Below, piece by piece: positions 1-20,000 of a DNA stretch of 20,000 nucleotides (position 1 is its first letter; each line of letters opens with the position of its first letter). This DNA is from Reclinomonas americana ATCC 50394 (Eukaryota): assembly GCA_048213135.1 (NCBI GenBank), contig PS015363.1, positions 66,158 through 86,157 on the forward strand. The letters are read 5' to 3'. The position numbers were made by a program, and so were the translations under genes. Under the pieces are notes generated by a model. That model ran no database searches. It was given only the letters and a program-made list of their open reading frames with translations, and was not told the origin of the DNA.

Positions 1-81
1 TGTATTATTCTGTGTCGCCGAGCGCTCGCCGTGTACCTGCTATCTTCCCTCCTTTCTTCTCCTCCCGTCTGCATCTTGCGG

Positions 82-2204: not shown

Positions 2205-4928
2205 CTAGCGACGAGGGGCTGATCGTGATGGGCCAGCCGAGGGCGGTGAACTGCCACTGCCCAGCTCGTTGATAAAGTAGTCGCGGAGATCTGGCGGCAG
2301 GGCATCGAGGTCGCGCGCATCGCGGAACACACCCTTCGGCAGGAACTTGAGCAGCTTGGAAGCATGCTCCCGAATCATGCGCTGTCGCTCCTGCTCGATA
2401 ATGGCACGACGAGCAGCCTGTCGTGACTCCTCGTCCTCCATCTCCTGGCGCTCACGCTGCCGCTGCTCCTCCACCATGCGCCGACGTTCCTCAATGAGTC
2501 GGTCAACCTGAATGACACGAGTGAGTTGTCGTCGTCAGTGATTTGCATGCGCATGGCCAAGACAAACTCTCCCACTCACCTCCTTGCGGTGGTCCATTTG
2601 CTTGCGACGACGCTTCTCTTGGCTGAGTTGCTCCAGGCGATCGTCTTCTGCGAACTTTTCCAGCATCTGGCGACGGAACTCGTCCTCCTCCAGGCGCTCG
2701 GCTTCCGCACGCTCGGCCTTGACACGCATCTGGAACTCGTTGGCCTGAATCATCTCCAGACGAGAGCGGATGCGCTTCTCGTTCTCCTCACGCTCCTTCT
2801 CGCGCTGCTTCTTGGCCTCCTCCTCCAAGTGCAGCTCCACCAGCAAGTTCTCGAACTCTTCCTGCTTGGCGCGCTCCTGCAGAATGCGCTCCGATTGCTG
2901 CACACACGTACACAGAAAACAGACACTGTCAGTCACCAGTTATGAGAGAAGAGATGAAGAGCGTGTGCAAAGACGCAACAATGGCAAGCAAACGGTCCTT
3001 CTCGGCCTGCACACCCGCACGCTTGGCCTCGCTGACTGCTGCTCGCGACTCTTGCTCCTCCAGGTATCGGCGAATCTACACGAGAAAAAATGCACTCACA
3101 TAAGTTGAACGGACCGGAGATGCTACACAAAATCCACGTGACAAACCTGCTCGTTCTCCTCCTGCTGTCTCCGTCTCTCGTTCTCTNNNNNNNNNNNNNN
3201 NNNNNNNNNNNNNNNNNNNNNNNNNNNNNNNNNNNNNNNNNNNNNNNNNNNNNNNNNNNNNNNNNNNNNNNNNNNNNNNNNNNNNNNNNNNNNNNNNNNN
3301 NNNNNNNNNNNNNNNNNNNNNNNNNNNNNNNNNNNNNNNNNNNNNNNNNNNNNNNNNNNNNNNNNNNNNNNNNNNNNNNNNNNNNNNNNNNNNNNNNNNN
3401 NNNNNNNNNNNNNNNNNNNNNNNNNNNNNNNNNNNNNNNNNNNNNNNNNNNNNNNNNNNNNNNNNNNNNNNNNNNNNNNNNNNNNNNNNNNNNNNNNNNN
3501 NNNNNNNNNNNNNNNNNNNNNNNNNNNNNNNNNNNNNNNNNNNNNNNNNNNNNNNNNNNNNNNNNNNNNNNNNNNNNNNNNNNNNNNNNNNNNNNNNNNN
3601 NNNNNNNNNNNNNNNNNNNNNNNNNNNNNNNNNNNNNNNNNNNNNNNNNNNNNNNNNNNNNNNNNNNNNNNNNNNNNNNNNNNNNNNNNNNNNNNNNNNN
3701 NNNNNNNNNNNNNNNNNNNNNNNNNNNNNNNNNNNNNNNNNNNNNNNNNNNNNNNNNNNNNNNNNNNNNNNNNNNNNNNNNNNNNNNNNNNNNNNNNNNN
3801 NNNNNNNNNNNNNNNNNNNNNNNNNNNNNNNNNNNNNNNNNNNNNNNNNNNNNNNNNNCGCAGCACCTCCTGCTGCTGCAGGAACTCGCGAACGAATGCC
3901 TGCGTCTCCTCCTGCTTGCGCATGCGGTCCAGCTGTTCGCGCTCGTCCTCCAGCTGGATCTTACGCACGAGCTCGTCAATCGCATCCTTCTCGCGGAGGA
4001 ACTCCTCATACGCATGCTGGCGTGCAATCTCGCGCTCCTCCATCTGCTGCTGCAGCATGACCTTGCCCTCCAGCAAGTGCTCGTGTCGCAGTCGCTCCTT
4101 CTCGCGCTCCGCAGCGTCAGCCGCCAAACGCGCCTGCTCCATCTCATCCGCCTTGACTCGGTCGTATTCCTGCACCGCACAAGGTGAGCCCTCACAACAG
4201 CCATGTGTGTGTGTGCGTGTGCGCGTGGACGCACCGCATCCTGCTGTTGCCGAATGCGTGCCTCCTCCACCTGATTGGCACGCTCCATGCTGACATACGC
4301 CACACGCAGCTTCGACTCCAAGTCCCTCAACTCATCGCTCTCCTCGCGAATGCGCTGCGNNNNNNNNNNNNNNNNNNNNCCATTGTTCATCATCATTACC
4401 ATCATTATCATGATCAGAGGAGAGCACACTGCCAGAGTCTCTCTCACCTGCACAACCTTCTCTTGTCGCAGTTGCTCTGTGCGACGGCGACTGATCTCAT
4501 TGGCAATGCGCTCCTCCTCCTCCACCAGGCGCTGCTGTTGCACGCGCGCGCGCTCCGACTACATCACACACACACAGGCGACATGACATGAGTGACACAC
4601 TCACACGTGCTGTCTGTCTCTCTTCAGAGCGCGCGCGCGCAACTTCCTCCATGGCCTGCTCAAGTGCCAGCTCCCGCTCGTACTCATCCAGCTCCTTCTG
4701 GCGACGAAGGCGCGTCACCTTTCCGTCAGAGTACTGCGCGCCCGCAGTCAGACTGTGTGTGGTCAGCATGCCCTTGAGATCCTGCTGAAAGTGGTCGCGT
4801 TGCCGCTCCTTTTGCATGCGCATCTCATAGAGTCTGCGAGTCGCCTGTTTGCGCGCACACACACAGGTAGAGTGAGTCACGCAGACAGCAGAAAGAGAGA
4901 GAGAGAGAGCGTGGTGCTGGCGGACCAT
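2205..4928 (-). CDS. MNS1: Meiosis-specific nuclear structural protein 1 (coiled-coil ciliary microtubule inner protein, TPH domain); 7 visible introns
   Basis: Spliced product is an E/R/Q-rich coiled coil with MNS1 hallmarks: RIREESDELRDLESKLRVAY, AYEEFLREKDAIDELVRKIQLED, MLEKFAEDDRLEQLSQEKRRRKQMDHRKEV and IIEQERQRMIREHASKLLKFLPKGVF. Probable ATG-only first coding exon at 4928-4926, followed by intron 4925-4845. Stop TAG at 2207-2205. Confidence 0.88.
3187..3858. other. assembly gap (672 N) inside an MNS1 exon
   Basis: run of N. Confidence 1.
4360..4379. other. assembly gap (20 N) inside an MNS1 intron
   Basis: run of N within intron 4447-4355. Confidence 1.
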
Positions 4929-4979: not shown

Positions 4980-7900
4980 TTAGTGCGTTTTTGGCTGTTC
5001 GCGCAAACATGTCTCCACGAGGCGCGTCACTCGCTGGCCGAGATCGTCCACCTGCGGGTGAATGCTGAGCAGAGTGAAGAACAGTGAACGAGAAGGCAAC
5101 ATGGTGTGCCGGACCTGATGATTCCACGAGACCACGAGTCGTGAGCTGCGGCAGGCCACCGACACGCCGCCGACGTTGATAAAGTCAGGCGCCGACGATG
5201 AGATGGGCACGGAGTCGGACACGGCTCTGTTATGTACGACGTGAATTGTGCGAATGGGGACGAAGGGGAGAGCGCGACGAACTGAGAGAGGGAGCACAGA
5301 ATGCCCTCGAGGGTCGCCAGGCCTTCGGCGTCCGAGGCCACGCGGTGCACTACGGTGTGTTTTAGGCGGGTGACCGACACGCCGAGTGTTTGTTCCGCCT
5401 CTGTTGGCGACACAAGCACCGGGACCTGCGGGAGGAGGTCACTCACCAAAGAGCGAGAAAAACATCGCGCTCTTCAAACACCACCACCAACCTCGCGATC
5501 CCGCAGGAGCAGCACGCCACGCACGGGGACCGAGTCACCGGGACAGCCGCCATCGGCTCCCGTCACTACCAGACATTATCACACTACTGTCAAAGTGCTG
5601 TTCAGAACTGAAGCGGTGTGATTGTGGACGCAACTGGCGGCAAGTCGGCCGCGGCTTTCCGCTTGCAGCGACGCCGAAATGTCGACACTCATGGCGGGGC
5701 CGGGTGGCACCGACAGCTGTGTATGAGAGGAACTTGCAATGATAAGTGGCACGTAGGTCAGCACTCTCATGTGCAAGGTGGAGCACGCAACCGAGGCCGC
5801 TCCATCTTCCTCCATCTCGAGAAATCGCGCATCATCTGGTGTGCCCTGGATGCTCACCGAGGTCCCATTCGGCGGCGTCTCCACCGGCACGCCGATTTCA
5901 CGCTCGATGCGTCGCTTCAAGTGCGCCCTGTCGCGGCAACGAGAGTGAGACGGAGAGAAGACAGCAATATTTCGCTCAAGACAGCGCGCACATTTTGGCC
6001 TTCTCGCCATGCACCAGCATGACGTTGCGCGGCTGCACCTGACGAATGAGCTGGAAAATGCCCTTGGCATCGGTGTGCGCACTGAAAGACATGTTCTCCA
6101 CGCGCATCTGCACCCGCACTCGTGTCTTGCGGTCAATGTCGACTTCGGGAGCGCCAGACAGGATCTTGGCGCCGACCGTGCCCGGCACGCAGTACCTACA
6201 CTCGCCCCCCGCCCCACGAATCAGTAATCCAGTGGACGGCGCCTTCGTATGCAAGACTGACGCACCCTGGAATGACCACCATGTTCTTCTCGTCTTCACA
6301 CCAGGCGCGGAACACCTCCAGCGACAAACCCGCGTGCAGCATACCAGGTGTGGCGAACAGGACGCACGGTCCAGGTGCGCGCATGAGCGACCGGTCAAAG
6401 GCCTTGATGTGCCGAAAGTCGAACATGTTGCTACAAGCACGGAAAGAACGTGAGCGTTAACTCGGTCGCCACTCCCTCACTCACTCAGCAGCTCACCGAT
6501 CAGTGAACGTGGTCCGGATCTTCTCGTTCGTCCACTGAATGTACAGCTGATAGTACAAGTTGGCCTTCTCGACCAGTCCTGTGCAGAGGCGCAGACCATC
6601 ATCAGCTTCTGTCGCCACCCTTGCCAGCGAGAAAATGTATCGTACCCGCTGAAAAGTACACTGGCACCGTCAAACCCATGCGCTCCCAGTACGTCTCGAT
6701 GAGAATGCACAGCTCTTGCGCTCGACCGAGTGCAAACACCGGAATCAACACCTGCGCCCCGCCACGTGAGCCACGCCACTCCGACGCACACACACACACA
6801 TAGGAGAGTCACAAAAGACCTTGCCACCACGCTGCACCACTTGATGCACGTTGGCCAGGAAGGTGCTCTCGCGAGTGCGTTTCGAGTCGCGCACAGTCGT
6901 GGCGTAGCTGAGCTCAAAAAGTGAGCGCGTGGGTGAATAATAGGGAAAGGGATCACGCGTCACGCACGTGGACTCGGTAATGAGAAGATCTGGTCGCAAA
7001 AGGTCGGCGCTGGCCGCTCCCAAGTGTCGATCCGGTGTCATGTTGTAGTCGCCCGTGTAGAGCACACTCTCGCCGCCGCATCGCACGTGGAACATGGCGG
7101 CGCCGAGCACCTGCAGAATGCTCGCGTGAGAAGGAGACGGAGAGAGTGCCAAAGAGAGGGTCGACCACGCAACATGGCCGGCGTAGTACGCCGTGATCTC
7201 CATGTCATCGTCGACCACCACAGTCTCACGCAGCTTGACGCAAATCACTGCGCGCCCGCGCCCGCGCGCGCATGTGAGTGACAAAATCACCAATACACGA
7301 CTGGTGCAACGATACAGCAGTGCCTCACCCTTCTTCATGCACGCCGCAATGTCGTCGGCCGTGAAAAAATCAGTCTCGCCTCGCCGATCCACCGCAATGC
7401 GTCGAAAGTCTTCCAGCAGAATCGGGCAAATGGCGCGCGTGGGACCCTGCCAACGCGCAACAAGTGAGTGAAAGCTGTCTCCTCACAGCTCAGCGCTCCC
7501 TTCCACGCAACTGTCATATACACTGGTCCACTGTAGCCGCACTGCTCGGTAAAGTACGGCAGCGATCCGCAGTGATCCAAGTGACTGCTCACAATCGATT
7601 CTTGAGACAACACACTCTCACTCTGCCTGCGTGCATGCAAAAGTGTACGCAACAAGTGCGAGATGATCACACAGTCGATGATCTGACTGTAGTCGCCTGT
7701 GCCGGCACCTCGCAGGAACGCAAAGTCGGGGAAGCGTCGAGCATCATTGAATCCCATGTGCATTCCACAGTCAAACATGATGTTGCGCCCACTGTGTGCA
7801 TGTGTGTGTGAGAGAGAGAGAGAGAGACAGGCAGGCAGAGAGGAAACAAGGTGAGTGCTTCTGCACGCGATACACGCACCCCAGCGTGACGACAACACAC

Positions 7901-9024: not shown

Positions 9025-11576
9025 GAACCACCTGACGCCGCCGCTGCAGCAGCCGTAGCAGCGGTACTCGTGCCTGTGGAGGCAAAGCGACGATTTGAAC
9101 CACTTGGCACCAGTGAGCCATGCGGGCTCTTCCCTGTGCTGCTGTTGGAGGACCTCGGTGTGCCGTCGCGACTGCCACCGCCATTGATGCTCATGCCGAA
9201 CGGCGCGTACTCGTCTTGGTCACGTGCGCCGCCGCCGCTGCCGCCACCGCCACCACGTCTGGGTGACGATTGCGACGAGGGCGTGCCGCTGCGTCCCTCC
9301 AACAGCAACGGCGACTCGTCGACAAACGAGTGCGGCTGCGATTGTGAGCCCTCCACCTTGTCGCCCGTCGCCATTCGTCGATGCGATGACACGGCAGTGG
9401 GCTGGGCAGCCTGCTGGCCGCGGATTTCTCGTCGGCTCGGTCGACGCGAACCCAGAAGCGCATCGGCAGCNNNNNNNNNNNNNNNNNNNNNNNNNNNNNN
9501 NNNNNNNNNNNNNNNNNNNNNNNNNNNNNNNNNNNNNNNNNNNNNNNNNNNNNNNNNNNNNNNNNNNNNNNNNNNNNNNNNNNNNNNNNNNNNNNNNNNN
9601 NNNNNNNNNNNNNNNNNNNNNNNNNNNNNNNNNNNNNNNNNNNNNNNNNNNNNNNNNNNNNNNNNNNNNNNNNNNNNNNNNNNNNNNNNNNNNNNNNNNN
9701 NNNNNNNNNNNNNNNNNNNNNNNNNNNNNNNNNNNNNNNNNNNNNNNNNNNNNNNNNNNNNNNNNNNNNNNNNNNNNNNNNNNNNNNNNNNNNNNNNNNN
9801 NNNNNNNNNNNNNNNNNNNNNNNNNNNNNNNNNNNNNNNNNNNNNNNNNNNNNNNNNNNNNNNNNNNNNNNNNNNNNNNNNNNNNNNNNNNNNNNNNNNN
9901 NNNNNNNNNNNNNNNNNNNNNNNNNNNNNNNNNNNNNNNNNNNAGCCATCGAGGTCGGCGACATGTCGCCTCGCGCGGGACTCTGCACCGTGCCGCTTCC
10001 ACCGTTACTGTCGGTGGAGCTGTTGGGTACAGAGATCGTGTGCGCTCCTGAGCCGCTCGGCGTGCTGTCGCCACCAACAGACGCGGCAGCGGCGGCAGTT
10101 CGGCCCGACACATCGACCCGCACAAACGCGGGCGCGGCCGACGGCACCGACACTGACAGCGACATTGGCTGGCGGTGTGGATCGTCGACACCGTCGACGG
10201 TGTTGACCAGGCAGTCTGCTTGCGATGACACCCGCTGCAGCGCGCGAACAATGTCATGAAACGAGGTGTGTGTGTGTGTGTGTGACACGTGCATAAGTCA
10301 ACAAACATACCTGTGGCAACTCCGGATTGATCACCAGCGGAGATTGTTCGCTCACGAGCGACGGGTTGGTGATTGGCGACTTGATACGCAGGATCAGGAG
10401 GCTCACGCAAATGGGCACAAAGTCGAGAGTCATGGACACAATGGCAACTGCGTGCACGGAGAGAGAAAGAAACATGAGCACAATGACGGAGATGCACATT
10501 TTTGGGTTGTTGTCATCCGCTCAACTAAAGAAGCGTGAGTCTGGGTTGGACCAGAGCGCCTGATGGCGCACAGCCACAGTCGCGTCCATGACGCAGCGCG
10601 CAATCAGCATGACGCCAAACATGACGCTGATGACAAACACCTTGGCATGCACACAATGGTGTCAGATGCGACTGCTGCATCGGAGACAAGCGTGCAAGAA
10701 AAGAAATATTCTCCGTCACCATTCGCACGTGCGAAAAGTTGGCCGTCTCGTCCTTGACGCCGCCGACCATGGCGCGATGCGTGAAGAAGTACCAGAAGAG
10801 GAAGAACACAACAATCGACGCCGACAGAATTGCATGATATGAAAACTGCCGCGCCACAAGATCAGTGCGAGTGGTGCACTGGGCGGTGCTTGCTTTTCCT
10901 TCTTCAACAAACCTGCAACTCCCACACCCACGACGCGTGCGGACCCAGCACCACAAAGCCGATAAGCAAGCCCCACTCCAGCGCATGAAGCTGCACATGT
11001 GCAAAGGAAGATTCGATGAGATGAGGGGAGAGGGAGTCTCTCACTCGTGACATGCGTACCAACAGGTTGATGCCGAAGAAGAGCTTGGCTGGCCGTCGCA
11101 AGAAGCGATGCACGTGCTGCATGGAGTACGAGTTCGACAAGTGCAGCAGACTCGACCTGTGCGCCAGTGTGTCAGCGCACGCACACGCACATGTGGAGAG
11201 GAGATGCGAAGGCCTCTCACCAGCACATGACCAGCGGGAAGAACGCCGAGTAGTAGAGCATGGAGCAGCCAAAGTACGTCACAATCATTAGTGTGGGCGG
11301 GAATAAGTGACCATCGTAGGGTAAGTCAAAGAACTGTGCCGCTCGACCTGCATGTGCGCACGTGCTGGTCATTACACAGCAGCACTTGTGCAGACAGACA
11401 GACAGACACACGCACACACTGTCTCCATCACACTCACCGAGTAGCACTGGTATCACGAGGAAAAAGAAGACCTTTTGCGGAGGATACGACCGCGGAAACT
11501 TGTGGCAGTGTGCGACAAACTCGTGGCTCGCAAAGAGGAAGAGCAGCACGTAGAGACCAGCCATGGTGTAGCACAT
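9025..11576 (-). CDS. GPR137/TOM1/THH1-like seven-transmembrane protein with a long low-complexity cytosolic tail; 3' end runs into a gap
   Basis: GCC-ATG at 11576. Seven introns give seven hydrophobic segments: MAGLYVLLFLFAS, QKVFFFLVIPVLLGRAAQFF, FGCSMLYYSAFFPLVMCW, LFFGINLLLHALEWGLLIGFVVL, YHAILSASIVVFFLFWYFF, VFVISVMFGVMLIARCVM and FIAIVSMTLDFVPICVSLLIL. The QK.F..L...R, F..L...W, TM6 Arg and TM7 D/E-x-x-P pattern resembles the DUF1084/GPR137 family. A Ser/Gly-rich tail follows. Confidence 0.7.
9471..9943. other. assembly gap (473 N) inside the 7TM tail exon
   Basis: run of N. Confidence 1.
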
Positions 11577-11689
11577 GGCGGGCCCAGCTGTCACCAAAAA
11601 GAGAGAGAGGAGTGAGTGAGCGAGTGTTTCAGACACGCACTTCACTGCGCACAGTCTCGCGACTGAAAGATGCGCGTGTGCAGAGAGGA

Positions 11690-12050
11690 ACGACAGATGC
11701 ACACACGCACACACAGACGGAACGAGAGAGAAAGAGAGAGGAGTGGACACGCAAGCGAGGAGAAACACGACGACACTGACCTCACTTACAAAACACGACA
11801 GGAATCGACACTCACTTCGCGTCTCTCTCTTCCTCTCTCTCTCACACTCACACTCACACACTCATACACAGAGGGAGAGACACACACACGCGCGCACGCA
11901 CCAGCCTCCAACGCATTTGTCATTCTGTGTGACTCCACGCGCACACTCGCACGCACACACACTCACTCACTCGCCCTCTCCAACTGCCACCGCAGACACG
12001 CAAAGAGACACGCGCAACAGCACACAACACACGCGCTCTCTTCCTCCACT
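11690..12050. promoter_or_regulatory. (CA)n/(GA)n/(CT)n-rich divergent intergenic region, probable bidirectional promoter and 5' UTRs
   Basis: Lies between divergent ATGs at 11576 (-) and 12154 (+) and is dense in degenerate dinucleotide repeats. No specific promoter motif identified. Confidence 0.45.
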
Positions 12051-12153
12051 CTCTGCTTTTGGATTCACCGCCCGTCCGACCCATCGGCTTCCCGCGCACA
12101 CGCGAGCCCGGATATCTTGCGCCATCTGTCCCGCTTATTTTCTGAGTTTCACA

Positions 12154-15100
12154 ATGCGAAGGCCACGGTTAGCACCGTGTGCCGCCGCACCGTGGCAAAG
12201 ATTACCACTCACACTGATAGTGATGGTGGTGGTGGTGGTGGTGATGGCAATGGTTGTCATTGCTCAGGGGGAGGAGGAGGAGAGTGGAGAGTGGATGCAC
12301 GAGCTGTCGCCGATTGATCTCAGTCAGGGTGCGTGCGTCTGCTCTGTGTGCTGTGTGTGTCTGCTGCGTGTGTGTGTTGCTCATGTGCGTGCGTGTGTGC
12401 AGTGGAGCAAGGGCCCAAGTCGGCGACGGGTCAGCACTTCCCGAATGTCGGCAAGCAACCGCCGCCGTCGCTGCCGGATCCGCGGCCACCGGTGCCGCTG
12501 AACAACGACTCGCCGCACACACTGCCGACGGCGTCGGGTGTGGTTGCGCCGCCAGGGCCGGTGGGTAGTGTGCCGGGAGGACCGGCCACGGCGGGCACGC
12601 TGGCGACACCGTCGACGCAGATTGCGGGCACGACGGTTCATCAGCTGGCGCCCGAGGTGAAGCCGCAGGATACGCTGACTCCTGTGCCGGATACGCTGGT
12701 GCCGGTGACGGTCACTGGACCCGGGTGCAGTCTGGGCGAGAAGCGCAAGCCAGAGGAGATTATCGGCAAGCCATCGGGAGCGTCGGCCGTCAAACCGGTG
12801 CCGCCCGCCATCAAGAAGATTGTGCCGCGCATCAAGACCGTGCTGGATCAATTGGAGGTGTGTGTGTGCGTGGTGATTGCGGAGAACCATGGATGGCACA
12901 CTGCGGCTCACGATCGCGCTCTTGTTTCTCGTCACAGCGTCGACCAATCAACTGCTCCCCAAAGCTGAACTCAGTGCTCCGCGCCGTGCAAAACAGCATG
13001 ATGGAGGCGCGCACGGCGTGTCAGAAGCCTCTGATTTGCATCGAGGGTATTCGTCGTTGGCAGTACCAGGTACTTTGTGTGTGTGTGTGTGTGTATGATG
13101 ATAAGCGTGTCGCGATGGATTTGCTGACAAGTGCGACAGATCTCAAACGGTCGCACACACTGGGCACGCCTGGTGGTCTCAGGGCACGAAGTGGTGGCGC
13201 AAGTGTGGGAGACTCCGTCTATCGAGACAGAGTATGCCAGTTCGTCGATTCCGAGTGCCAAGGGCAATGCGTTTCGTCACTTGCTGCTGTGCTGTTGACG
13301 ATGTGCTGTAGTTCGTCAGCCCACTGTGATGATGCAGTGTGACCGACAATGCGGAACGCATGACTGTGGTGGGCCTCTTCCGTCCGCGCCAGTCGCAGAC
13401 GGAGGCGCGACAACCACTCGATGTCTGTGCGCTCGGTGCGCGGCCAGCCGCCACCGCCAGCGACTGCGCACACGCCGATCTGTCCTCGCTCAAGGCCACG
13501 ATTACCAACTTTAATCAGTATGTGGAGCTCGACGGTGATCTAACTCCGCTGCACGTCGACATGTTGCGTTTCTGGGATCGTACAGGAGGTCGTGAGGGCA
13601 TGTATTTGTGCTGATGCGCTGTGTGCAGCATGGAGGATGCCGATGTGGATGAGGTGGACGGCGAGAGTGGCGAGACGCGCAACTTGGTGGAGCCCGAGGT
13701 GCTCAACTCGGAGCTGGAGGTCGACGAGATTGACGAGGCTTCCAAGTTGTCGCTGGCGGAGATTGTGGAGTCACGCTTGTCGGTGTCCGAGTACGATTTC
13801 CGCAACGTGGCCGACAAGCTCAAGTGCCCCGTGCGCGTTCTCGACCAGCGGTTCTGGTGAGAGTCTTCTCCATATGCAGCAGTTGGCAGCTGTGAGCGCC
13901 CTCCACTGATCCTGCATTGTGTCCACAGTGGTGGCAGTTGGGCGTTCTCGGCCGCCACCTCACTGTCGGCAAGTTTGTGCATCGTGACGCAGGTTGGAAA
14001 ACGCCCTTCTTTACTGCTGTTCTTCACTGCCGTGTAGCAGCGCACTGACTGGTGGTGATAGGGTCGCGACACGGCACTGGTGAGCCCGCAAGACATTATC
14101 TCGTGCACTGGTCGCGGTGACGGCTGTCGTGGCGGTCACTACTATCGCACGTACAAGCAGATGGCCAAGAAGAAGCTGCAGGTGTGTGTGCGCACGCGCT
14201 GGAGGTCGACCTTGTGGAGCTTGTGTTGACGCGGCTCTTGTTTTCATGCACGTCAGGTTCTCTTTGACGAGTGCCACCCGTTCGTGTCGGCGGATATCAC
14301 ACTGGGCGAAAAGTGTGGTGTCACCGCTCCGCTGCAACAGTGCAAGAACCCTCGTCGCATCGGGGCTGCAAACACGCGCTATCTCGCTGCACTGGATTCG
14401 CCAGGCGCCGAGGATGCGTTGAAACGAGCCATTCGTCGGGTGGGTGCTGTCAGTGCCGAAATCGTCGTGCATCGCTCGTTCTACAAGTACTCGGGTGGTG
14501 AGTGGGGGAGTGTTTCACAACGACGACAGACTCACATCACATCGTACTCACTGCTTTTTGATGTGCAGGCATCTACACGGCCAAGCAGGCCGATGTGGTC
14601 GACGGTCTGCATGCTGTCACAGTGATTGGCTGGGGCGACGATCCGCAGGCGCCGTACTGGATCATTCAGAACTCGTGCGTCAGTTGCTAATGTGGCTTGG
14701 AGTGACTGGCAACTGAATCGATTGTTAACGTTCTCGTTGTTGCTGCAGGTGGGGTGAATTGTGGGGCGAGAAGGGATTTGCGCGCATCGCTCGCGACAAG
14801 GCCACCATTGACAAGCTGGGACTGCGCAACTTTGTGTGGGTCGACGCCACTCCGAGCGTTGTGTGCAACAAGATCAATTGCGTGCATGGCATGACCTCGG
14901 CAGACTGCAACACGTGCTCGTGCGACGAAGGATGGAGTGGACCCGATTGCAACAGTTGTGTGTGCAGAAGGGAAGAGAAGGAGTGTGCGTGCGTACATTG
15001 CTGACGTGCAGTGTCTGTGTTTCAGAGTGCACGCTAAAGTGCTACAATGGCGGCGAAGTGGACACTGCCGCCTGCCAGTGCATGTGCCCGGACGGATTTG

Positions 15101-18001
15101 GTGGCGTGCAGTGCGAACTGAGTTGCGTTGCCGAGAGTCGACATGGTGTTTATCTCGCTCGTGGTTGCTGACGGCGAGTGACAGGCATCACACCACTGCA
15201 CGGTCTTATCGGCGTTGTTCCGCTGTGCAAGCGTTCTGATTTCGGTGTGCGCCTCACTGGTTTCCGAGCTCATGAAAAGGTATGCATGCTCTCCACGCGT
15301 CTTGAGCAGCGAACGGAAGACTCAAATCGACGGCTGTGCAGGATTTCATCATTGTGACACGACACCCGAACCCCCCGCGTGACACCTCTGGCAAGTGGAA
15401 CACTCTGATCAGCAACAGGCTGCCGTGCAAGGGCGTGTGTCCGCCGGGCCCCGTAGATGTGCACCTCAGCCTGTCCGGTTTGCAGTCCGGTCGCTATGTC
15501 GTTGCGCACAGACCGTTTCCCTTTTCGTGTTTCTCTGCTTCCCTTCCTCATCACCTGCTCGCCAGATCTGGTACATGCAGGCGCAGACGGCGAATGCATT
15601 CGGTCAGGAGACAGGCTACGAGGCGCAGGTGCCACTGAACATTGAGATCGAGGGCGTGCCGTCCAGCTGTGCGTCACTCGTCTCTTTAGCCAGTGCCGAT
15701 GTGAGAGTGTCTCCCTGACATCTTGTTGATGTCCATGCGCAGCCTGGGCCAAGATCAATCCCACACCCGCGATTTTGGCACCGGCGGCCGAAGTGATTCC
15801 GGTGCCGCCGCCGCGCTGCACGGTGGTTCCCGGCCAGGTACGCGGCAAGTGGCTGTACAATCCGTTCGACGATGTCGCACCGGCAGCCGTCGACCCGCTG
15901 ACCGACATGCCGGTGACGGAGCTGGATGGATTCCCGGTCGACAAGGAGGTCGCGGATGCCATTCGCAAGGTCGACGACGACGCGTCGGTGGAGATCCTCG
16001 CGCCCAAGACGCAGGCCCCGAAAGACCCGAATCAGGCGTTGCCGGTACCCGGCACTCCGTACATTGATCCGTGCACGTCGCCCACGTACACGGAGCTGAC
16101 CGTCACGTTCAAGCGCGCCCCCGGTCTGAAGGATGTCGGCATTCTGCACTACGAAGTGGAGCGCAGCTCAGACGCACTGTTCAACGAGGGTGTGGAGCGC
16201 AGTGTGGTGGCCCCCGACGGTTTCAACACCTCCAAAGTGCGGCACACTGTCCGCGGACTCGCCGCCGGTCGCGCCAATTATGTACGTGCACGAGTGGTGA
16301 CGGTGACTGGTCGCTCCGGTCCGTGGAGCAAGACAAGCCAGCCGCTACGCACGGCTGGATCACCCAGTTGAGTATGAGGCAATCGTTCATTTTTCTCTGA
16401 ACCACCATCATCTAACTCATGGTTCGTGCAGACGGGCAATGCAACGTGCCGCTCTTCACCTCGCCGGCCATTGCCTACGCATCCGCACCGTACATGATGG
16501 TGAGTGTGAGGCGAATCTGTTTGCAGCACCGGTTCGCGAAAAATGACGCGATGGCATTATGTTGCAGGGAACGCCGGGAGTCGAACAGTGCCCACTGAAT
16601 CAGGGAGTAGCCAGCTGCTGCACCAAGCAGTCGGTGAAATGTTTCGTCGTGCACGCAATCGTGTGTGTGTCGTCTGTGTGGTCGAGACGAGAAACTGATC
16701 CGTGGTGGTGGTGTGTGCAGTCATGAAAGAGGACCTGACGAACCAGGCCTCGGTTTACGCCCGCGGACCCGACGGCTTCCTCGACATGGTGGAGCGCCTG
16801 GTGACGATGGTACGCGTTTTTCTTCTGCACTGCTCTCCAGAGTACTGCATCCTCATCCATGCACGCATTGCACAGGCTGCGCACTGGACGACATACACTG
16901 CCGGTGTGCAGGCGTGGCCGAGGGTGCGGCAGGCGCAGCAGCGGGCACTCGACACGGCGTACAGGTTCGCGTCGGACAACCGCGCACTGATTGAGCAGTG
17001 CTTCACCACCACCCACCGTTACCTGGCCGGACTGTACTGTTTGGGATGCCGTGGCGACTGGGGTCTGTACATGTCGCAGTCATCGCTCGGTTTCACCACC
17101 GTGGCGTTGCACACGTCGACGTGCGACAAACTGGAACAAGGTAATATATGGGCAATGATCGAGTGGTGGTGGTGGTGGTGGTGAGTCTCATTGTGGCACG
17201 CGACAGACTGTGCGGCATTTGTCGATGCGTACCACGTGGCCGTGCGTGATATCAACGGGATTTATGCGGCCGGCTTTGGTGGTGAACTGCCGCCGAACCG
17301 TCCGGTGGAGGTGCCGACCGAGTCGCCTTGCGCGCACACGTTCGAGAACCAAAAGTCGCTCATCAAGTGCCGCACGCACGTGTGCCAGACTGTGTTTGGT
17401 GGTGCGTTGTGCTTCACTCGCTTGTTTCACCGTGCATCGTGGTGTTGACAAGTGCACTTGTGTTTGCGCAGGCACCGACATTCGTTTCGGAGCATCGCGC
17501 AAGTTGCGAGCAGTGCACTCGGCGTCGTCTTTTCCTCCAGCCCCCCACCCGCGTTCTCACATTGTTTGTGCAGGACCGACTTGTCGTCGGAGGTGCTGCT
17601 GACGAGTGCCGAGGTGGCAAGCGAGGAGACCAACAACTTTTCCGACATTTTGTTGTATGGCGGCACTCAGGGCACTCCACCTGCAGCGGTGCGTTGTACA
17701 TATCGTTATCACGCACTTTCGTTGCGTGTACTGACGCAAAGAGAGACACAGGTGGCCAATGTGTACTCGGACAAGGGTTACAACTTGTTTGGCATTCAGG
17801 CGCCCCCACCAATCCCAAACCTCAACAGTGGCTTGCAACGTTGCGTCTCGCGGCTGTCTTGCTCTTTTCTGTCTCTCTCGCTCACCCATTTCCCTCTTTG
17901 CAGGCTCGTTGCCCAAAAACTCGTCAACAAGAGCATCGACAGTCAGCGGTTGGTTGTTGCTCTTCGCCGTGGCTGTTGTCACTGCGCTAGTGGCTTGGTG
18001 A
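12154..18001 (+). CDS. Large secreted, probably GPI- or membrane-anchored mosaic protein: signal peptide, Pro/Thr-rich region, cystatin-like domain, C1A papain-fold domain (Cys to Ser), 2 EGF-like repeats, beta-sandwich, FN3, folate-receptor-like Cys-rich domain; about 24 introns
   Basis: A continuous frame is obtained with GT-AG introns at donors 12329, 12858, 13070, 13271, 13563, 13857, 13993, 14182, 14498, 14675, 14955, 15122, 15280, 15501, 15669, 16367, 16500, 16641, 16810, 17141, 17402, 17503, 17689 and 17840. N-terminal LIVMVVVVVVMAMVVIA. Papain motifs YDFR, DQRFCGGSWAFS, SPQDIISC, GCRGG, FYKYSGGIY, HAVTVIGWG and YWIIQNSWGELWGEKGF. EGF motifs CSCDEGWSGPDC and CMCPDGFGGVQC. FN3 motif ...HYEVE...GL...YVRAR...GPWS. 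Hydrophobic C-terminus WLLLFAVAVVTALVAW*. Confidence 0.8.
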
Positions 18002-18112
18002 ATACAGTAAAAACAACAAGACAAAGAAAACGCTCACTCACAAATGCCACTCAAAGCAATGCATTACCGTGCTCTCTCTCTCTCTCTCCTACTGCTACGC
18101 TTGTTACGATTT

Positions 18113-20000
18113 TCAACTGCTTAGTGCCATGCCGAATGCCTCGTATGCCGGCAGTGGTTCGGCGTTACCGTACAGCAGCACAGTTGGCGGCTTGCCCTTG
18201 ATGACGCGCGCGGCCACCCGTCGCACATCCTCAATGCTGACCTCGTCGATCTTGGTGCACAGCTCCTCACTCGACAAGTGCTTCCCGTATGTCAACATCT
18301 GGCGACCCATGTCCTCCGTCATGCCACCACGCATCTCGCGACCCATCAGCAGACTCATCTTGAGTTGATTCTTGGCACGGGCCACCTCGTGCAGCCAGAT
18401 CGGGTCTGCAGAGACGAGCAGGGTGAGCGCAGTGAGCGAGGCGTCTGCGGGAAATCACCCTCACCTGCATCGAGGTACAGCTTGCGCAGCTCGGCCACCA
18501 ACACTCGCACACAATCCTCGACATTCTCGTGGAAGGTGTTGGCGTAGATACCCCACAGACCGCCGTCGGTGTACGTGTGCACGTTGGNNNNNNNNNNNNN
18601 NNNNNNNNNNNNNNNNNNNNNNNNNNNNNNNNNNNNNNNNNNNNNNNNNNNNNNNNNNNNNNNNNNNNNNNNNNNNNNNNNNNNNNNNNNNNNNNNNNNN
18701 NNNNNNNNNNNNNNNNNNNNNNNNNNNNNNNNNNNNNNNNNNNNNNNNNNNNNNAGACGGCGGCGTTGATCCAGCCGTACCGGTTCAGCACACGCAGGTA
18801 CCTGTGCTACACGATCAGTGGACGGCAGCAGGGTCATGGGCAGCGGGGGGTGCAGCCACGCAACAGTCGGCTGTACATGCCCTTGCCGGGCCCGCCGGCC
18901 GAGAACGAGTTGCCACCGCCCATCATCATGTGCAACACGTACAGTGCGTACACGTCGGGGTCGTGCCACGAGGGCGCTGCGACGAGTGCAAGTGAGATGG
19001 AGCGACGGTCGGTCCGCGAGTGAGCAGAGGCATGTACCATCAAAGAAAATGCCGAGGTGCGTCAGCGGCGGCAGATGCGTGGGATTGTGTGGCACCTCCA
19101 ACACGTGCTCGCGGAAGTAGCCGCCAGTGTAGACCGACGGCGACTTCTCGATCTCCAAAACGTGACCCTGCCGATCGACTTGTCGGTGCGGAACCTTGGC
19201 AAAGAACTGATTGGCCAGGTGCACCAGGGTTTCGTGAGCCATGCCTGCGACCAAGAAGAGGTAGGTGGTGTGAGCACCGCGCAGCACAAGCCGACGACTA
19301 ACACACACACGCACCCGTGCCCGACAAGACAATGCGCGGTCCAACGGCGTGCCTGCGCAGATACTCGCGCAGTGTTTGCGGTGTTATCTGGGCGGCCTCG
19401 GCAGGCGTCGGCATGAGCGGGTTGCCAATGGCACTCCGCGGATAGGCGATGCGATGGGCGATCTCGGTAATCAACGAGTTGTGGTTGCGCTCGAGGTCCT
19501 CCAGCTCAAACTCCAGAATCTGCCTCTGCTCCTCCATATCCTCGTCGGCAAAGCGCGGCTGCAGCACCGACTGCAACCGGAGGAGGGAATGAGCGTTTAT
19601 GCAACGCGGAATGCGTGACAGATGCGCGCGCACGCACCTGCGAAATGATCTCGAGCATGCGCGGCAAGTTGTCCGGCAACACCTCCGCGCGATACACGAG
19701 GAACTCGCGCTCGGCATCCGACGAGAACTTGCCTCCCATCGACTCGAGCTCCGCCTGCACCTGCGACGCCGTCACACTCCCGTATCCCTGTTCGCCCACC
19801 CGCATGTCAGACTCGTGAAAGGATACGAGCGTGTGACAATGAGACCTTGAAGGCCAGGCGCGTGAGAAAGTACGTGGCTCCACGCTCTGTGGGCCTCTCG
19901 AAGCGCGAGCCCGTGTTGATGAAGAGTCCCACGCTGCACACGTTCTCCGGTCGATTCTGCACCACCACGATGGTGGGAAAATATGCTCACTCACTCTGTC
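18113..20000 (-). CDS. PMPCA: Mitochondrial-processing peptidase alpha subunit (M16B, non-catalytic); 5' end lies outside the window
   Basis: [13 protein letters not shown], degenerate zinc motif (YFLTR in place of HxxEH), YTGG, the diagnostic glycine-rich loop [36 protein letters not shown] and ARAKNQLK...[11 protein letters not shown]. Six visible introns. Stop TGA at 18115-18113. Confidence 0.93.
18588..18754. other. assembly gap (167 N) inside an MPP-alpha exon
   Basis: run of N. Confidence 1.

What the first reader, a model, noticed from the sequence alone, without database searches (positions are those of the whole stretch)
12154..18001. Unfamiliar surface-protein architecture: cystatin + papain pseudo-protease + EGF + FN3 + folate-receptor-like + GPI/TM tail
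Seen: one spliced frame of roughly 1,400 aa (estimate) links a signal peptide, a Pro/Thr stalk, a cystatin-like region, an acidic linker, a papain fold, two EGF repeats, a beta-rich domain, FN3, a helical Cys-rich domain and a hydrophobic C-terminus. I do not recognise this combination from any characterised family. Inference: a cell-surface adhesion or receptor protein, or a protease trap or decoy. The weakest link is the FN3-to-Cys-rich junction, which needs the shifted donor A|GTTGAGT at 16367 (acceptor 16431) to skip TGA 16369-16371.
Basis: partly seen in the sequence, partly recalled or inferred. Interest (0 to 1): 0.75.

Follow-up and report, generated by a model that had tools for sequence, protein, structure and literature searches.

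The report
Mosaic GPI-anchored surface protein gene
This is a real, roughly 25-exon gene of a GC-rich protist that encodes a large cell-surface protein made of a protease-like domain lacking its catalytic cysteine, adhesion-type modules and a rare cysteine-rich tail domain; the domain combination is unusual, though none of the recognisable domain types is new.

Summary
The finding is largely real. One + strand gene runs from ATG 12154 to TGA 18001. It can be spliced through 24 GT..AG introns of 56-111 nt into about 1,357 codons.

**Supported**
- A signal-peptide-like N-terminus and a Pro/Thr-rich stretch.
- An acidic segment.
- A cathepsin-B-like papain domain with Ser at the nucleophile position, and His and Asn kept.
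- Two EGF signatures and an FN3 that scores below threshold.
- A Cys-rich helical module and a hydrophobic C-terminal tail that looks like a GPI signal.

**Not supported**
- The cystatin label.
- Folate-receptor membership.

The tail module has four stand-alone relatives. One is an unnamed Vitrella brassicaformis protein, and none matches a relevant Pfam family. A profile of the family hits only glypican-1 in the PDB sequences, and only weakly (E 0.024).

The FN3-to-Cys-rich junction is the weak point. Donor 16367 scores poorly, and a better donor at 16372 would leave TGA in frame. A single gene is still favoured. The tail module starts exactly at the one available acceptor, and it has no signal peptide of its own.

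I found no protein with the same architecture, but the papain part was never used as a database query.

Verdict: a new combination of known module types. Interest is moderate. Transcript evidence is missing.

The parts
12154..12267 (+). Start codon and signal-peptide-like N-terminus (aa 1-38). The poly-Val core is encoded by a (GTG)n run.
   Evidence: This is the first in-frame ATG after the stop at 11617-19. The hydrophobic segment is aa 14-40 with a Kyte-Doolittle maximum of 3.62. (GTG)9 lies at 12220-12247. Cleavage was not predicted because no SignalP was available.
12268..12857 (+). Pro/Thr/Ser-rich low-complexity region (aa 39-210), made of the end of exon 1 (to 12328) and exon 2 (12403-12857).
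   Evidence: Pro 18%, Ser+Thr 16%. No Pfam family. In-frame GC3 of exon 2 is 0.77.
12938..13517 (+). Exons 3 (12938-13069), 4 (13140-13231, or ending at 13270) and 5 (13338-13517).
   Evidence: No Pfam hit at E<=1 except DUF6973 at 0.22. No PDB-sequence hit at E<=10 for exons 3 and 5. The fold is unassigned. The exon 4 donor is ambiguous.
13629..13795 (+). Acidic segment (aa 345-400), in the first part of exon 6.
   Evidence: Asp+Glu 34%. In-frame GC3 of exon 6 is 0.85. The PDB search of exon 6 found only chance hits.
13796..14873 (+). Papain-fold (Peptidase C1) domain of cathepsin-B type, spread over the end of exon 6, exons 7-10 and the start of exon 11.
   Evidence: Pfam PF00112 matches four consecutive pieces in collinear order (E 0.15, 8.5e-4, 0.074, 2.3e-7). 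For exon 10 against PDB sequences, 20 of the best 21 rows are cathepsin B or B-like, with a best E of 3.2e-4. Exon 11 starts with a match to cathepsin K 184-202 at E 0.11.
13936..13938 (+). AGT (Ser) codon at the position of the papain catalytic cysteine.
   Evidence: Direct reading of exon 7. The assignment to the nucleophile position rests on the recalled papain active-site motif and on the Pfam match at profile positions 24-47.
14610..14612 (+). CAT (His) codon aligned with the catalytic histidine.
   Evidence: Aligned with the His of the cathepsin B-like peptidase 3qsd.
14670..14672 (+). AAC (Asn) codon aligned with the catalytic-triad asparagine.
   Evidence: This is the last aligned column of the alignment. 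It is followed across intron 10 by the Ser-Trp-Gly motif.
14864..15121 (+). Two EGF-like repeats. EGF1 is at the end of exon 11 (to 14954). EGF2 is exon 12 (15026-15121).
   Evidence: Two matches to the recalled EGF signature pattern, at aa 654-668 and 685-696, with 11 Cys in 58 aa. Pfam gives only weak hits: JAG1-like_EGF2 at 0.096 and VWF at 0.13.
15185..15668 (+). Exons 13 (15185-15279), 14 (15342-15500) and 15 (15566-15668). These are the least certain exon borders.
   Evidence: No Pfam hit. In-frame GC3 is 0.45 in exon 13 and 0.74 and 0.79 in exons 14 and 15. The dynamic-programming model chose other borders, with introns of 164 and 128 nt.
15743..16366 (+). Exon 16: Pro-rich linker (aa 819-920) followed by an FN3-like domain (Pfam match at nt 16075-16341).
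   Evidence: fn3 at E 2.1e-4 and 21.9 bits against a cut-off of 25, covering profile positions 9-82 of 84. The first Atlas hit scores 0.90 and is an fn3 cluster, and 21 of 30 hits fall in that set. AlphaFold2 on the exon alone failed, with pLDDT 38.5.
16367..16431 (+). Intron 16, the critical FN3-to-Cys-rich junction. The donor is GT at 16367 and the stop TGA lies at 16369-71. A rival donor GT lies at 16372, and the acceptor is AG at 16430-31.
   Evidence: Donor scores are 0.4 bits for 16367, 5.0 for 16372 and 3.5 for 16319. The acceptor scores 7.6. It is the only AG between the in-frame TAA at 16413-15 and the first Cys codon of the next module. The intron is 65 nt and phase 1.
16432..17827 (+). 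Cys-rich helical module (aa 1026-1325, 13 Cys). Exons 17-24: 16432-16499, 16568-16664, 16721-16809, 16912-17140, 17207-17401, 17472-17502, 17574-17688, 17752-17827.
   Evidence: HMMER against 1.84 billion representatives gave hits P0001 and P0003. tblastn of P0001 and P0004 on the window gave about 8e-10 on exon 20. blastp was collinear over exons 17-24 (E 3e-14 and 7e-16). The Cys spacing is shared. The family profile hits only glypican-1 in PDB sequences, at E 0.024. Exon 22 is weak, with GC3 0.44.
17904..18001 (+). Last exon: a Ser/Thr-rich spacer, a 16-residue hydrophobic end (nt 17951-17998) and the stop TGA at 17999-18001. It looks like a GPI-attachment signal.
   Evidence: The hydrophobic segment at aa 1336-1357 runs to the last residue. 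The strong polypyrimidine acceptor scores 10.9 bits. Relatives P0001, P0003, P0004 and P0005 end the same way. No GPI predictor was available.

Best explanation
**What it is.** This is one protein-coding gene of a GC-rich, intron-rich eukaryote. The organism was not identified. The gene encodes a roughly 1,350-aa mosaic glycoprotein of the cell surface.

**Inferred route to the surface.** The N-terminal signal sequence takes the protein into the ER. The C-terminal hydrophobic peptide is then exchanged for a GPI anchor.

**Order of modules, from the membrane outward**
- A helical Cys-rich domain with 12 family-typical cysteines plus one extra. It belongs to a small uncharacterised family and distantly recalls the glypican / folate-receptor / Frizzled cysteine-rich-domain (CRD) superfamily.
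- An FN3-like domain.
- A Pro-rich linker.
- An unassigned region of about 120 aa.
- Two EGF repeats.
- A cathepsin-B-like papain domain.
- An acidic segment and an unassigned region of about 130 aa, which may be a pro-region.
- A Pro/Thr-rich, probably O-glycosylated, N-terminal tail.

**How it probably works (inference).** The papain domain keeps the oxyanion Gln, the His and the Asn but has Ser in place of the nucleophilic Cys. The most likely role is a non-catalytic or very weakly catalytic binding head for peptides or proteins. Other inactive papain-fold proteins, such as TINAG and TINAGL1, work this way. The protein would then be an adhesion or ligand-capture molecule rather than a degradative protease.

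**Shown:** the gene structure in outline, the domain content and the Cys-to-Ser change.

**Inferred:** secretion, GPI anchoring, use of donor 16367, lack of proteolytic activity, and the binding role.
For: **Gene model**
- The spliced frame runs through 25 exons. All 24 introns are GT..AG and 56-111 nt long.
- In-frame GC3 is the highest of the three codon positions in 20 of 25 exons.

**Papain domain**
- Peptidase_C1 matches are collinear on 4 exon pieces.
- Exon 10 matches cathepsin B-type chains in 20 of the best 21 rows, with His and Asn aligned.
- Ser at the nucleophile position is read directly from exon 7.

**Other modules**
- fn3 at E 2.1e-4, with an Atlas lead of 0.90.
- Two EGF signatures and only two hydrophobic segments, one at each end.

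**Tail module**
- Homologous to P0001 and P0004, collinear over exons 17-24, and to P0003 and P0005.
- All four relatives are 348-479 aa and have an N-terminal hydrophobic leader and a hydrophobic C-terminal end.
- The mature start of P0001 aligns with the first residues of exon 17.

**Fusion into one gene**
- Upstream of exon 17 there is an in-frame TAA at 16413-15 and only one AG.
- The only alternative start, ATG 16419, gives no hydrophobic leader.
- The fn3 profile match reaches nt 16341, beyond the rival donor at 16319.

**Other**
- No Pfam hit on 9 antisense ORFs.
- TINAG and TINAL are listed as inactive papain-like proteins that act in cell-matrix interaction (PMC10318531, passages read).
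Against: - There is no transcript or protein evidence of any kind.
- Donor 16367 scores 0.4 bits. 67% of the 518 GTs in the gene score at least as well, and the neighbouring donor at 16372 scores 5.0 but would end the frame at TGA.
- Only one Peptidase_C1 piece exceeds Pfam's cut-off, and fn3 stays below its cut-off.
- Exons 13 and 22 have low in-frame GC3, 0.45 and 0.44.
- The dynamic-programming models differ from the hand model in exons 4, 12-15, 16 and 22-25.
- The splice-site matrices were trained on introns I chose myself, so they are partly circular.
- The spliced protein could not be given to Pfam, AlphaFold or a signal/GPI predictor as one chain.
- A Ser-His-Asn triad can be catalytic in some papain-fold proteins (recalled: silicateins), so inactivity is not shown.
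- The gene's own protein was not found in the protein collections. There is therefore no independent annotation to compare with.
Confidence: 0.65

Rival explanations
1. There are two genes. The upstream gene ends at TGA 16369-71 and encodes a secreted papain-like/EGF/FN3 protein. Exons 17-25 form a separate gene for a stand-alone GPI-anchored Cys-rich protein like P0001.
For: All four detected relatives of the tail module are stand-alone proteins of 348-479 aa. Donor 16367 is weak at 0.4 bits, and the stronger donor at 16372 leaves TGA in frame.
Against: Only 60 nt separate the TGA from exon 17. The in-frame TAA at 16413-15 leaves ATG 16419 as the sole possible start, and it gives a short non-hydrophobic N-terminus directly before the first Cys. 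All four relatives carry an N-terminal hydrophobic leader. A disulfide-rich domain with a GPI-like signal needs ER entry. The one acceptor at 16430-31 scores 7.6 bits, and every in-frame donor candidate joins it to the upstream gene.
Confidence: 0.12
2. There is one gene with two products. Splicing at the weak donor 16367 gives the GPI-anchored full-length protein. Use of the stronger donor 16372, or retention of intron 16, puts TGA in frame and gives a shorter secreted form without the Cys-rich module, or an unstable mRNA.
For: Two GT donors lie 5 nt apart, scoring 0.4 and 5.0 bits. If the intron is retained, the stop falls at codon 1.
Against: The idea rests on sequence alone. The matrices come from 23 self-chosen introns. 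An mRNA with a stop followed by eight further introns would normally be degraded (general knowledge of nonsense-mediated decay, not tested here).
Confidence: 0.2
3. The papain-like domain is an active hydrolase that uses Ser-His-Asn. The protein would then be a surface-tethered enzyme rather than a binding protein.
For: Gln, His and Asn of the active site are all retained. A silicatein alpha chain is among the weak PDB hits of exon 11, at E 0.61. Ser-type papain-fold enzymes exist (recalled: silicateins).
Against: Known Cys-to-Ser papain-fold proteins such as TINAG and TINAL are classed as inactive (PMC10318531). A Ser in a thiol-protease active site is generally a poor nucleophile (general enzymology, not tested here).
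Confidence: 0.2
4. The locus is a decaying pseudogene, or a draft-assembly artefact, in which the TGA at 16369-71 is a real disruption.
For: The window comes from a gapped draft with 5 N-runs and 2,240 N. The gene's protein is absent from the protein collections searched.
Against: No other frame break is needed across 25 exons. The codon-position GC bias persists on both sides of the junction. All 12 family-typical cysteines of the tail module are intact.
Confidence: 0.05

Closest known systems
TINAG / TINAGL1 (tubulointerstitial nephritis antigen family, animal matrix proteins)
   Same: A cathepsin-B-type papain fold that lacks the catalytic cysteine, combined with small Cys-rich modules in a secreted protein that acts by binding rather than cleaving. 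PMC10318531 lists TINAG and TINAL as inactive papain-like proteins.
   Different: In TINAG the small Cys-rich modules lie N-terminal to the protease-like domain (recalled). Here two EGF repeats follow it, and then come an unassigned region, FN3, a large Cys-rich module and a GPI-like signal. Orthology was not tested.
Glypicans (GPI-anchored proteoglycans) and the FZ-CRD / NPC1 / folate-receptor / glypican homologous group of ECOD
   Same: A signal peptide, then an extracellular helical cysteine-rich domain, then a C-terminal GPI-type signal. The N-terminal C..C..CC motif and a later C-x(n)-C-x2-C motif resemble the glypican/FRBP 12-Cys pattern quoted in PMC4256011 and seen. The only PDB-sequence hit of the family profile is glypican-1, at equivalent N-terminal positions (E 0.024).
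   Different: No Pfam Glypican or Folate_rec match for any family member. The spacers differ: x12 here against x8, and a C-x6-C pair where glypicans have C-x3-C-x6-C. The low-confidence model found no structural match among solved structures. No clear heparan-sulfate attachment cluster was seen. The module is about 300 aa, against a glypican core of about 450 aa.
Stand-alone relatives P0001, P0004, P0005 (unnamed, JGI) and P0003 (unnamed protein product, Vitrella brassicaformis CCMP3155)
   Same: They share the Cys-rich module, the cysteine spacing and the hydrophobic C-terminal end.
   Different: They consist of the module alone, or of two copies in P0003, behind their own signal peptide. They have no papain, EGF or FN3 parts. 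Identity to the window's module is only about 21-35%.
Plasmodium SERA5-type and sponge silicatein-type papain-fold proteins with Ser at the nucleophile position (recalled from memory, not tested here)
   Same: Cys-to-Ser replacement with His and Asn kept.
   Different: As recalled, both lineages are closer to cathepsin L than to cathepsin B. Neither has EGF, FN3 or CRD modules or a GPI signal.

Membership tests
Peptidase C1 (papain family, PF00112) | Sequence match to the family profile over the whole domain. | tested here: inconclusive
   Four exon pieces match collinearly at profile positions 24-189, but only one (31.6 bits) passes the 20.7-bit cut-off. The spliced domain could not be scanned as one chain.
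Peptidase C1 (papain family, PF00112) | Catalytic cysteine as the nucleophile. | tested here: not met
   The codon at 13936-38 is AGT (Ser) in the active-site motif. The position was assigned from the recalled motif and from the Pfam match at profile positions 24-47.
Peptidase C1 (papain family, PF00112) | Catalytic His and Asn. | tested here: met
   His (14610-12) and Asn (14670-72) align with those of cathepsin B-like chains.
Cathepsin B subfamily | Closest similarity to cathepsin B, and presence of the occluding loop. | tested here: inconclusive
   For exon 10, 20 of the best 21 PDB rows are cathepsin B or B-like. Exons 9 and 11 weakly prefer cathepsin L and K, at E 0.97 and 0.11. The occluding loop was not assessed.
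TINAG / TINAGL1 | Cathepsin-B-like domain without the catalytic Cys, preceded by N-terminal small Cys-rich modules, in a secreted matrix protein. | tested here: inconclusive
   The Cys-to-Ser change and cathepsin-B affinity are met. The module order differs, because the EGF repeats lie C-terminal.
Cystatin | Match to a cystatin profile or fold. | tested here: not met
   No Pfam hit at E<=1 on the three pieces. No PDB-sequence hit at E<=10 for exons 3 and 5. This is an exon-by-exon test only, so sensitivity is low.
EGF-like domain | Six-cysteine pattern and a profile match. | tested here: inconclusive
   Two matches to the recalled signature pattern. Pfam gave only weak hits, at E 0.096 and 0.13.
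Fibronectin type III (PF00041) | Profile match at or above the gathering score. | tested here: inconclusive
   21.9 bits against a cut-off of 25, E 2.1e-4, covering profile positions 9-82 of 84. The Atlas first hit scores 0.90 and is an fn3 cluster. The single-sequence fold failed.
Folate receptor family (PF03024) | Profile match. | tested here: not met
   No hit on the window pieces or on any of the 6 rows of alignment A3 at E<=10. The Atlas shows a Folate_rec cluster at 0.80, which is chance level.
Glypican (PF01153) | Profile match, conserved cysteine pattern, GPI signal, and heparan-sulfate attachment sites near the C-terminus. | tested here: inconclusive
   No Pfam hit. The family profile against PDB sequences hits only glypican-1, at E 0.024. 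The Cys pattern is partly similar. A GPI-like tail is present. Attachment sites were not evident. Foldseek found no match.
GPI-anchored protein | N-terminal signal peptide plus a C-terminal signal made of small residues, a spacer and a hydrophobic end that reaches the last residue. | tested here: inconclusive
   Both hydrophobic segments are present, and they are the only two in 1,357 aa. No SignalP or GPI predictor was available, and anchoring itself cannot be tested here.

The most novel reading that the evidence does not exclude
The C-terminal module and its four stand-alone relatives, one of them from the chromerid alga Vitrella, are true but very distant homologues of animal glypicans. 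The glypican body plan (signal peptide, helical 12-Cys domain, GPI anchor) would then exist outside animals. In this gene it has been joined by phase-1 exon shuffling to EGF, FN3 and a Ser-type cathepsin-B-like head. The tandem donors at 16367 and 16372 would switch between an anchored and a released form.
Probability: 0.2. Interest if true: 0.65.

Novelty: new variant of a known kind. Interest (0 to 1): 0.45.

Why it matters
Each recognisable module type is known, and odd mosaics of extracellular modules are common in protists, so the surprise is moderate. Two points deserve follow-up.

- **A rare tail family.** The tail module defines a very small, unnamed family of proteins with a GPI-like C-terminal signal. 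An exhaustive HMMER search of 1.84 billion representative proteins with a 161-aa piece of the module gave two true relatives, and two word-based searches seeded with them added two more. The family's only profile link is to glypican-1. If that link is real, it bears on where the glypican / folate-receptor type of surface cysteine-rich domain came from.
- **An inactive-looking protease head.** A cathepsin-B-type domain with Ser as nucleophile, displayed on the cell surface, parallels the animal TINAG proteins. It would add a case for asking what inactive papain folds bind.

Tried and rejected
**Searches that found nothing useful**
- Word-based search for longer proteins with the FN3 exon: none of 5,122 candidates passed.
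- PDB-sequence searches: the Cys-rich ORF gave only Inscuteable at E 0.76, P0001 gave a tail fibre at E 0.29, and exon 7 (21 aa) gave no hit. Exons 3 and 5 gave no hit, and exon 6 gave chance hits only.
- Pfam on P0001 and P0003 and on all 6 rows of alignment A3: only chance hits such as CoV_S2, GA and FIVAR.
- Rfam over the window: no match.
- Pfam on 9 antisense ORFs: no match.

**Structure work**
- AlphaFold2 of P0001 with a 6-row alignment gave mean pLDDT 55.1 and long helices only. Foldseek against the PDB gave 0 matches at E<=0.001. The best was ClyA at 0.18, a generic helical bundle.
- AlphaFold2 of exon 16 alone gave pLDDT 38.5 and was unusable.

**Other leads**
- Atlas on P0001 scored 0.80 at best, which is chance level.
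- Ab initio dynamic programming over-split the gene at a low intron penalty (35 exons). At higher penalties it produced a 3-nt terminal exon and dropped the hydrophobic tail. I rejected this in favour of the hand model, which keeps introns within 56-111 nt and keeps the GPI-like end shared with the relatives.
- P0002 (1,806 aa, repetitive) was rejected as spurious. Its best-scoring match (query residues 61-98 of the 161-aa ORF) falls almost entirely within the intron-derived stretch.
- Literature searches for the architecture and for glypicans outside animals turned up nothing that describes this protein.
- Two papers, Pei & Grishin 2012 and Filmus 2008, were not held.

**Not done**
- The organism could not be identified.
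- No supplementary files were consulted.

Full report
**Setting.** The window is eukaryotic DNA of about 57-62% G+C outside five runs of N, which total 2,240 N. The neighbouring genes are ordinary.
- An SRF-type MADS-box gene lies at the left end on the + strand.
- A trichohyalin-plectin-homology gene, which I read as MNS1-like, lies at 2205-4331 on the - strand.
- A beta-CASP RNA-metabolising metallo-beta-lactamase lies at about 5976-7482 on the - strand, with an RMMBL hit at E 8.7e-14.
- An M16 peptidase lies at 18113-19383 on the - strand.

Rfam finds nothing in the window. I could not identify the organism.

**Checking the observation: the gene model.**
- I read 12000-18300 and built the exon chain by hand, checking every junction by translation.
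- The model has 25 exons from ATG 12154 to TGA 17999-18001 and gives 1,357 aa. All 24 introns are GT..AG and fall within a narrow range of 56-111 nt.
- Donor hexamers recur. Six of 24 begin GTTG and five are GTGCGT.
- The third codon position is the most G+C-rich of the three positions in 20 of 25 exons. Exon 7 ties, and exons 1, 9, 13 and 22 do not show the bias.
- A simple dynamic-programming gene finder of my own gave the same chain for exons 1-3 and 5-11. It differed in exons 4, 12-15, 16 and 22-25, and at every penalty setting it produced an implausible 3-nt last exon.
- I keep the hand model for three reasons. It keeps intron lengths inside the observed range. It keeps the whole fn3 match. 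It also keeps the hydrophobic C-terminus that the relatives share.
- Exons 4, 13-15 and 22 remain provisional. Plausible alternative models range from about 1,180 to 1,357 aa.
- Nine long antisense ORFs have no Pfam match.

**Domains that hold up.**
- *Papain domain, profile matches.* Pfam scanning of 22 stop-to-stop pieces gave Peptidase_C1 on four consecutive pieces, in the correct order along the profile: 24-47, 49-83, 98-159 and 153-189. The E-values were 0.15, 8.5e-4, 0.074 and 2.3e-7, and only the last is above the curated cut-off.
- *Papain domain, subfamily.* Exon 10 searched against all PDB sequences gave 59 hits. Of the best 21 rows, 20 are cathepsin B, procathepsin B or cathepsin-B-like, with a best E of 3.2e-4. 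The catalytic His and Asn are aligned. Exons 9 and 11 give only weak cathepsin L and K hits.
- *Papain domain, active site.* In exon 7 the active-site motif carries Ser (AGT 13936-38) where papain-family enzymes have the nucleophilic Cys. The preceding Gln and the disulfide Cys are kept. This is a direct reading, and the motif itself is recalled from memory.
- *FN3.* The FN3 call is sub-threshold but consistent. It scores 21.9 bits against a cut-off of 25, with E 2.1e-4, and covers profile positions 9-82 of 84. The first Atlas hit scores 0.90 and is an fn3 cluster. Folding the exon on its own failed.
- *EGF.* Two strings match the EGF signature pattern, which I recalled from memory. Pfam support is weak.
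- *Termini and composition.* Only two hydrophobic segments exist, aa 14-40 and aa 1336-1357, and the second runs to the last residue.

**Domains that do not hold up.**
- The 'cystatin-like' region (exons 3-5) has no Pfam hit at E<=1 and no PDB-sequence hit at E<=10 for exons 3 and 5. These exon-by-exon tests are insensitive, so the label is unsupported rather than disproved.
- The 'beta-rich' region has no match at all.
- 'Folate-receptor-like' has no Pfam support.

**The C-terminal module.**
- *Relatives found.* A 161-aa ORF (16699-17181) contains exons 19 and 20 and the in-frame intron between them. I searched it with HMMER against 1.84 billion representative proteins and got three hits at E<=0.001. 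P0002 matches mainly the intron-derived stretch, so I discarded it. P0001 (348 aa) and P0003 (479 aa) are real.
- *Follow-up searches.* These added P0004 and P0005. P0003 is an unnamed protein product of Vitrella brassicaformis, and the other three are unnamed JGI sequences.
- *Shared design.* All four have a hydrophobic leader, a Cys-rich region predicted to be helical, and a hydrophobic C-terminal end.
- *Collinear alignment.* Inside a script, the spliced model aligns collinearly with P0001 (its residues 21-239 against model 1028-1258, E 3e-14). It also aligns with P0004 (48-313 against 1051-1315, E 7e-16). This covers exons 17-24 and is independent support for that part of the exon chain.
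- *Cysteine spacing.* The shared spacing is C-x26-30-C-x6-8-CC-x66-75-C-x12-C-x2-C-x23-33-C-x6-C. The window, P0001 and P0004 have three further cysteines.
- *Family assignment.* No member has a relevant Pfam match. A profile of the family searched against all PDB sequences returns only glypican-1. Three sequence variants match, at E 0.024-0.028. The family's C..CC region aligns with the equivalent N-terminal region of glypican-1.
- *Context from ECOD.* The ECOD paper places the Frizzled CRD, NPC1, folate receptor and glypican in one homologous group. It gives a 12-Cys pattern for glypicans and folate/riboflavin-binding proteins that resembles this family's pattern in outline (PMC4256011, passages read).
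- *Limits.* The structural test was uninformative. The model had pLDDT 55, and no Foldseek match was better than E 0.18. I therefore treat 'glypican / folate-receptor superfamily' as a lead, not a membership.

**The weak junction.**
- The FN3 frame stops at TGA 16369-71.
- Exon 17 is bounded upstream by an in-frame TAA at 16413-15. The only AG between that stop and the first Cys codon is at 16430-31, and it scores 7.6 bits.
- The coding sequence of the tail module can therefore be reached in only two ways: by splicing into 16432, or by starting at ATG 16419. Starting at 16419 gives five non-hydrophobic residues before the first Cys and no signal peptide. All four relatives do have a leader.
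- Every in-frame donor candidate joins 16432 to the upstream gene. This favours one gene.
- Which donor is used is less clear. 16367 keeps the complete fn3 match, which reaches nt 16341, but it scores only 0.4 bits. 16319 scores 3.5 but removes the last strand of the domain. 16372 scores 5.0 but leaves TGA as the last codon of the exon.
- The matrices come from 23 introns of my own model, so they are weak evidence. Two products from one gene, one anchored and one truncated, is a possibility worth testing.

**Mechanism.**
- I infer ER entry and GPI anchoring, with the Cys-rich module nearest the membrane and the papain-like domain and Pro/Thr tail outermost.
- The Pro/Thr stretch lies at the distal end, so it is not a stalk.
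- The papain-like head lacks the thiol nucleophile but keeps the rest of the active site. It most likely binds rather than cleaves, as TINAG and TINAL do. Those are listed as inactive papain-like proteins that affect cell-matrix interaction (PMC10318531, passages read).
- An active Ser-His-Asn hydrolase is the main functional rival.

**Comparison and novelty.**
- No protein with this architecture turned up. However, I never queried with the papain part, and the gene's own product is absent from the collections.
- The literature searches found no description of such a protein. [quoted passage not shown] I saw no paper that reports them outside animals, but my searches were few.
- In my model, all five module boundaries (introns 11, 12, 15, 16 and 24) are phase 1, against 10 of 24 introns overall. 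That is the pattern recalled from exon shuffling of extracellular modules. It was chosen post hoc and depends on the model.

**Verdict.** This is a real gene encoding a new arrangement of known module types plus one rare, unnamed Cys-rich family. The finding is of moderate interest. Transcript data are the decisive missing piece.

Noticed in passing
window 16364-16374: Two GT donors lie 5 nt apart around the in-frame TGA. The weak one (16367) skips the stop. The stronger one (16372) makes TGA the last codon of the exon. This could be a switch between an anchored and a truncated product.
   Followed up: partly
window 12154-18001 (introns 11, 12, 15, 16, 24): In my model all five boundaries between extracellular modules are phase-1 introns, against 10 of 24 introns overall. 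This recalls the exon-shuffling pattern, but it was chosen post hoc and depends on the model.
   Followed up: partly
window 13993, 14955, 15122, 15501, 16367, 17503: Six of 24 donors begin GTTG and five are GTGCGT, which is an unusual donor repertoire. The GTTG donor at 13993 is backed by continuity of the papain-domain match.
   Followed up: partly
window 12220-12247 and 17163-17183: (GTG)n microsatellites. The first encodes the poly-Val core of the signal sequence and the second lies inside intron 20. CA/GT/CT-rich low-complexity DNA fills 11391-11972, upstream of the start.
   Followed up: no
window 1-1000 (+): An SRF-type MADS-box transcription factor gene, split by an intron (PF00319 profile positions 3-23 and 23-48 on two pieces).
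   Followed up: no
window 2205-4331 (-): A coiled-coil gene with the trichohyalin-plectin-homology domain, covering profile positions 39-352 over three pieces. It is interrupted by the N-run at 3187-3858. I read it as MNS1-like, which would suggest a flagellated life stage (the MNS1 reading is my own).
   Followed up: no
window 5976-7482 (-): A beta-CASP metallo-beta-lactamase gene of CPSF73 / Integrator-11 type (RMMBL at E 8.7e-14, Lactamase_B_6 at E 0.002).
   Followed up: no
window 18113-19383 (-): An M16 peptidase gene, like a mitochondrial processing peptidase. It is arranged tail to tail with the studied gene. Its last ORF ends about 110 nt from the stop at 18001, so the 3' UTRs must nearly touch or overlap. 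It is interrupted by the N-run at 18588-18754.
   Followed up: no
protein P0003 (Vitrella brassicaformis), residues 55-192 and 254-358: The Vitrella relative carries two almost identical copies of the core of the Cys-rich module, which is an internal duplication.
   Followed up: no
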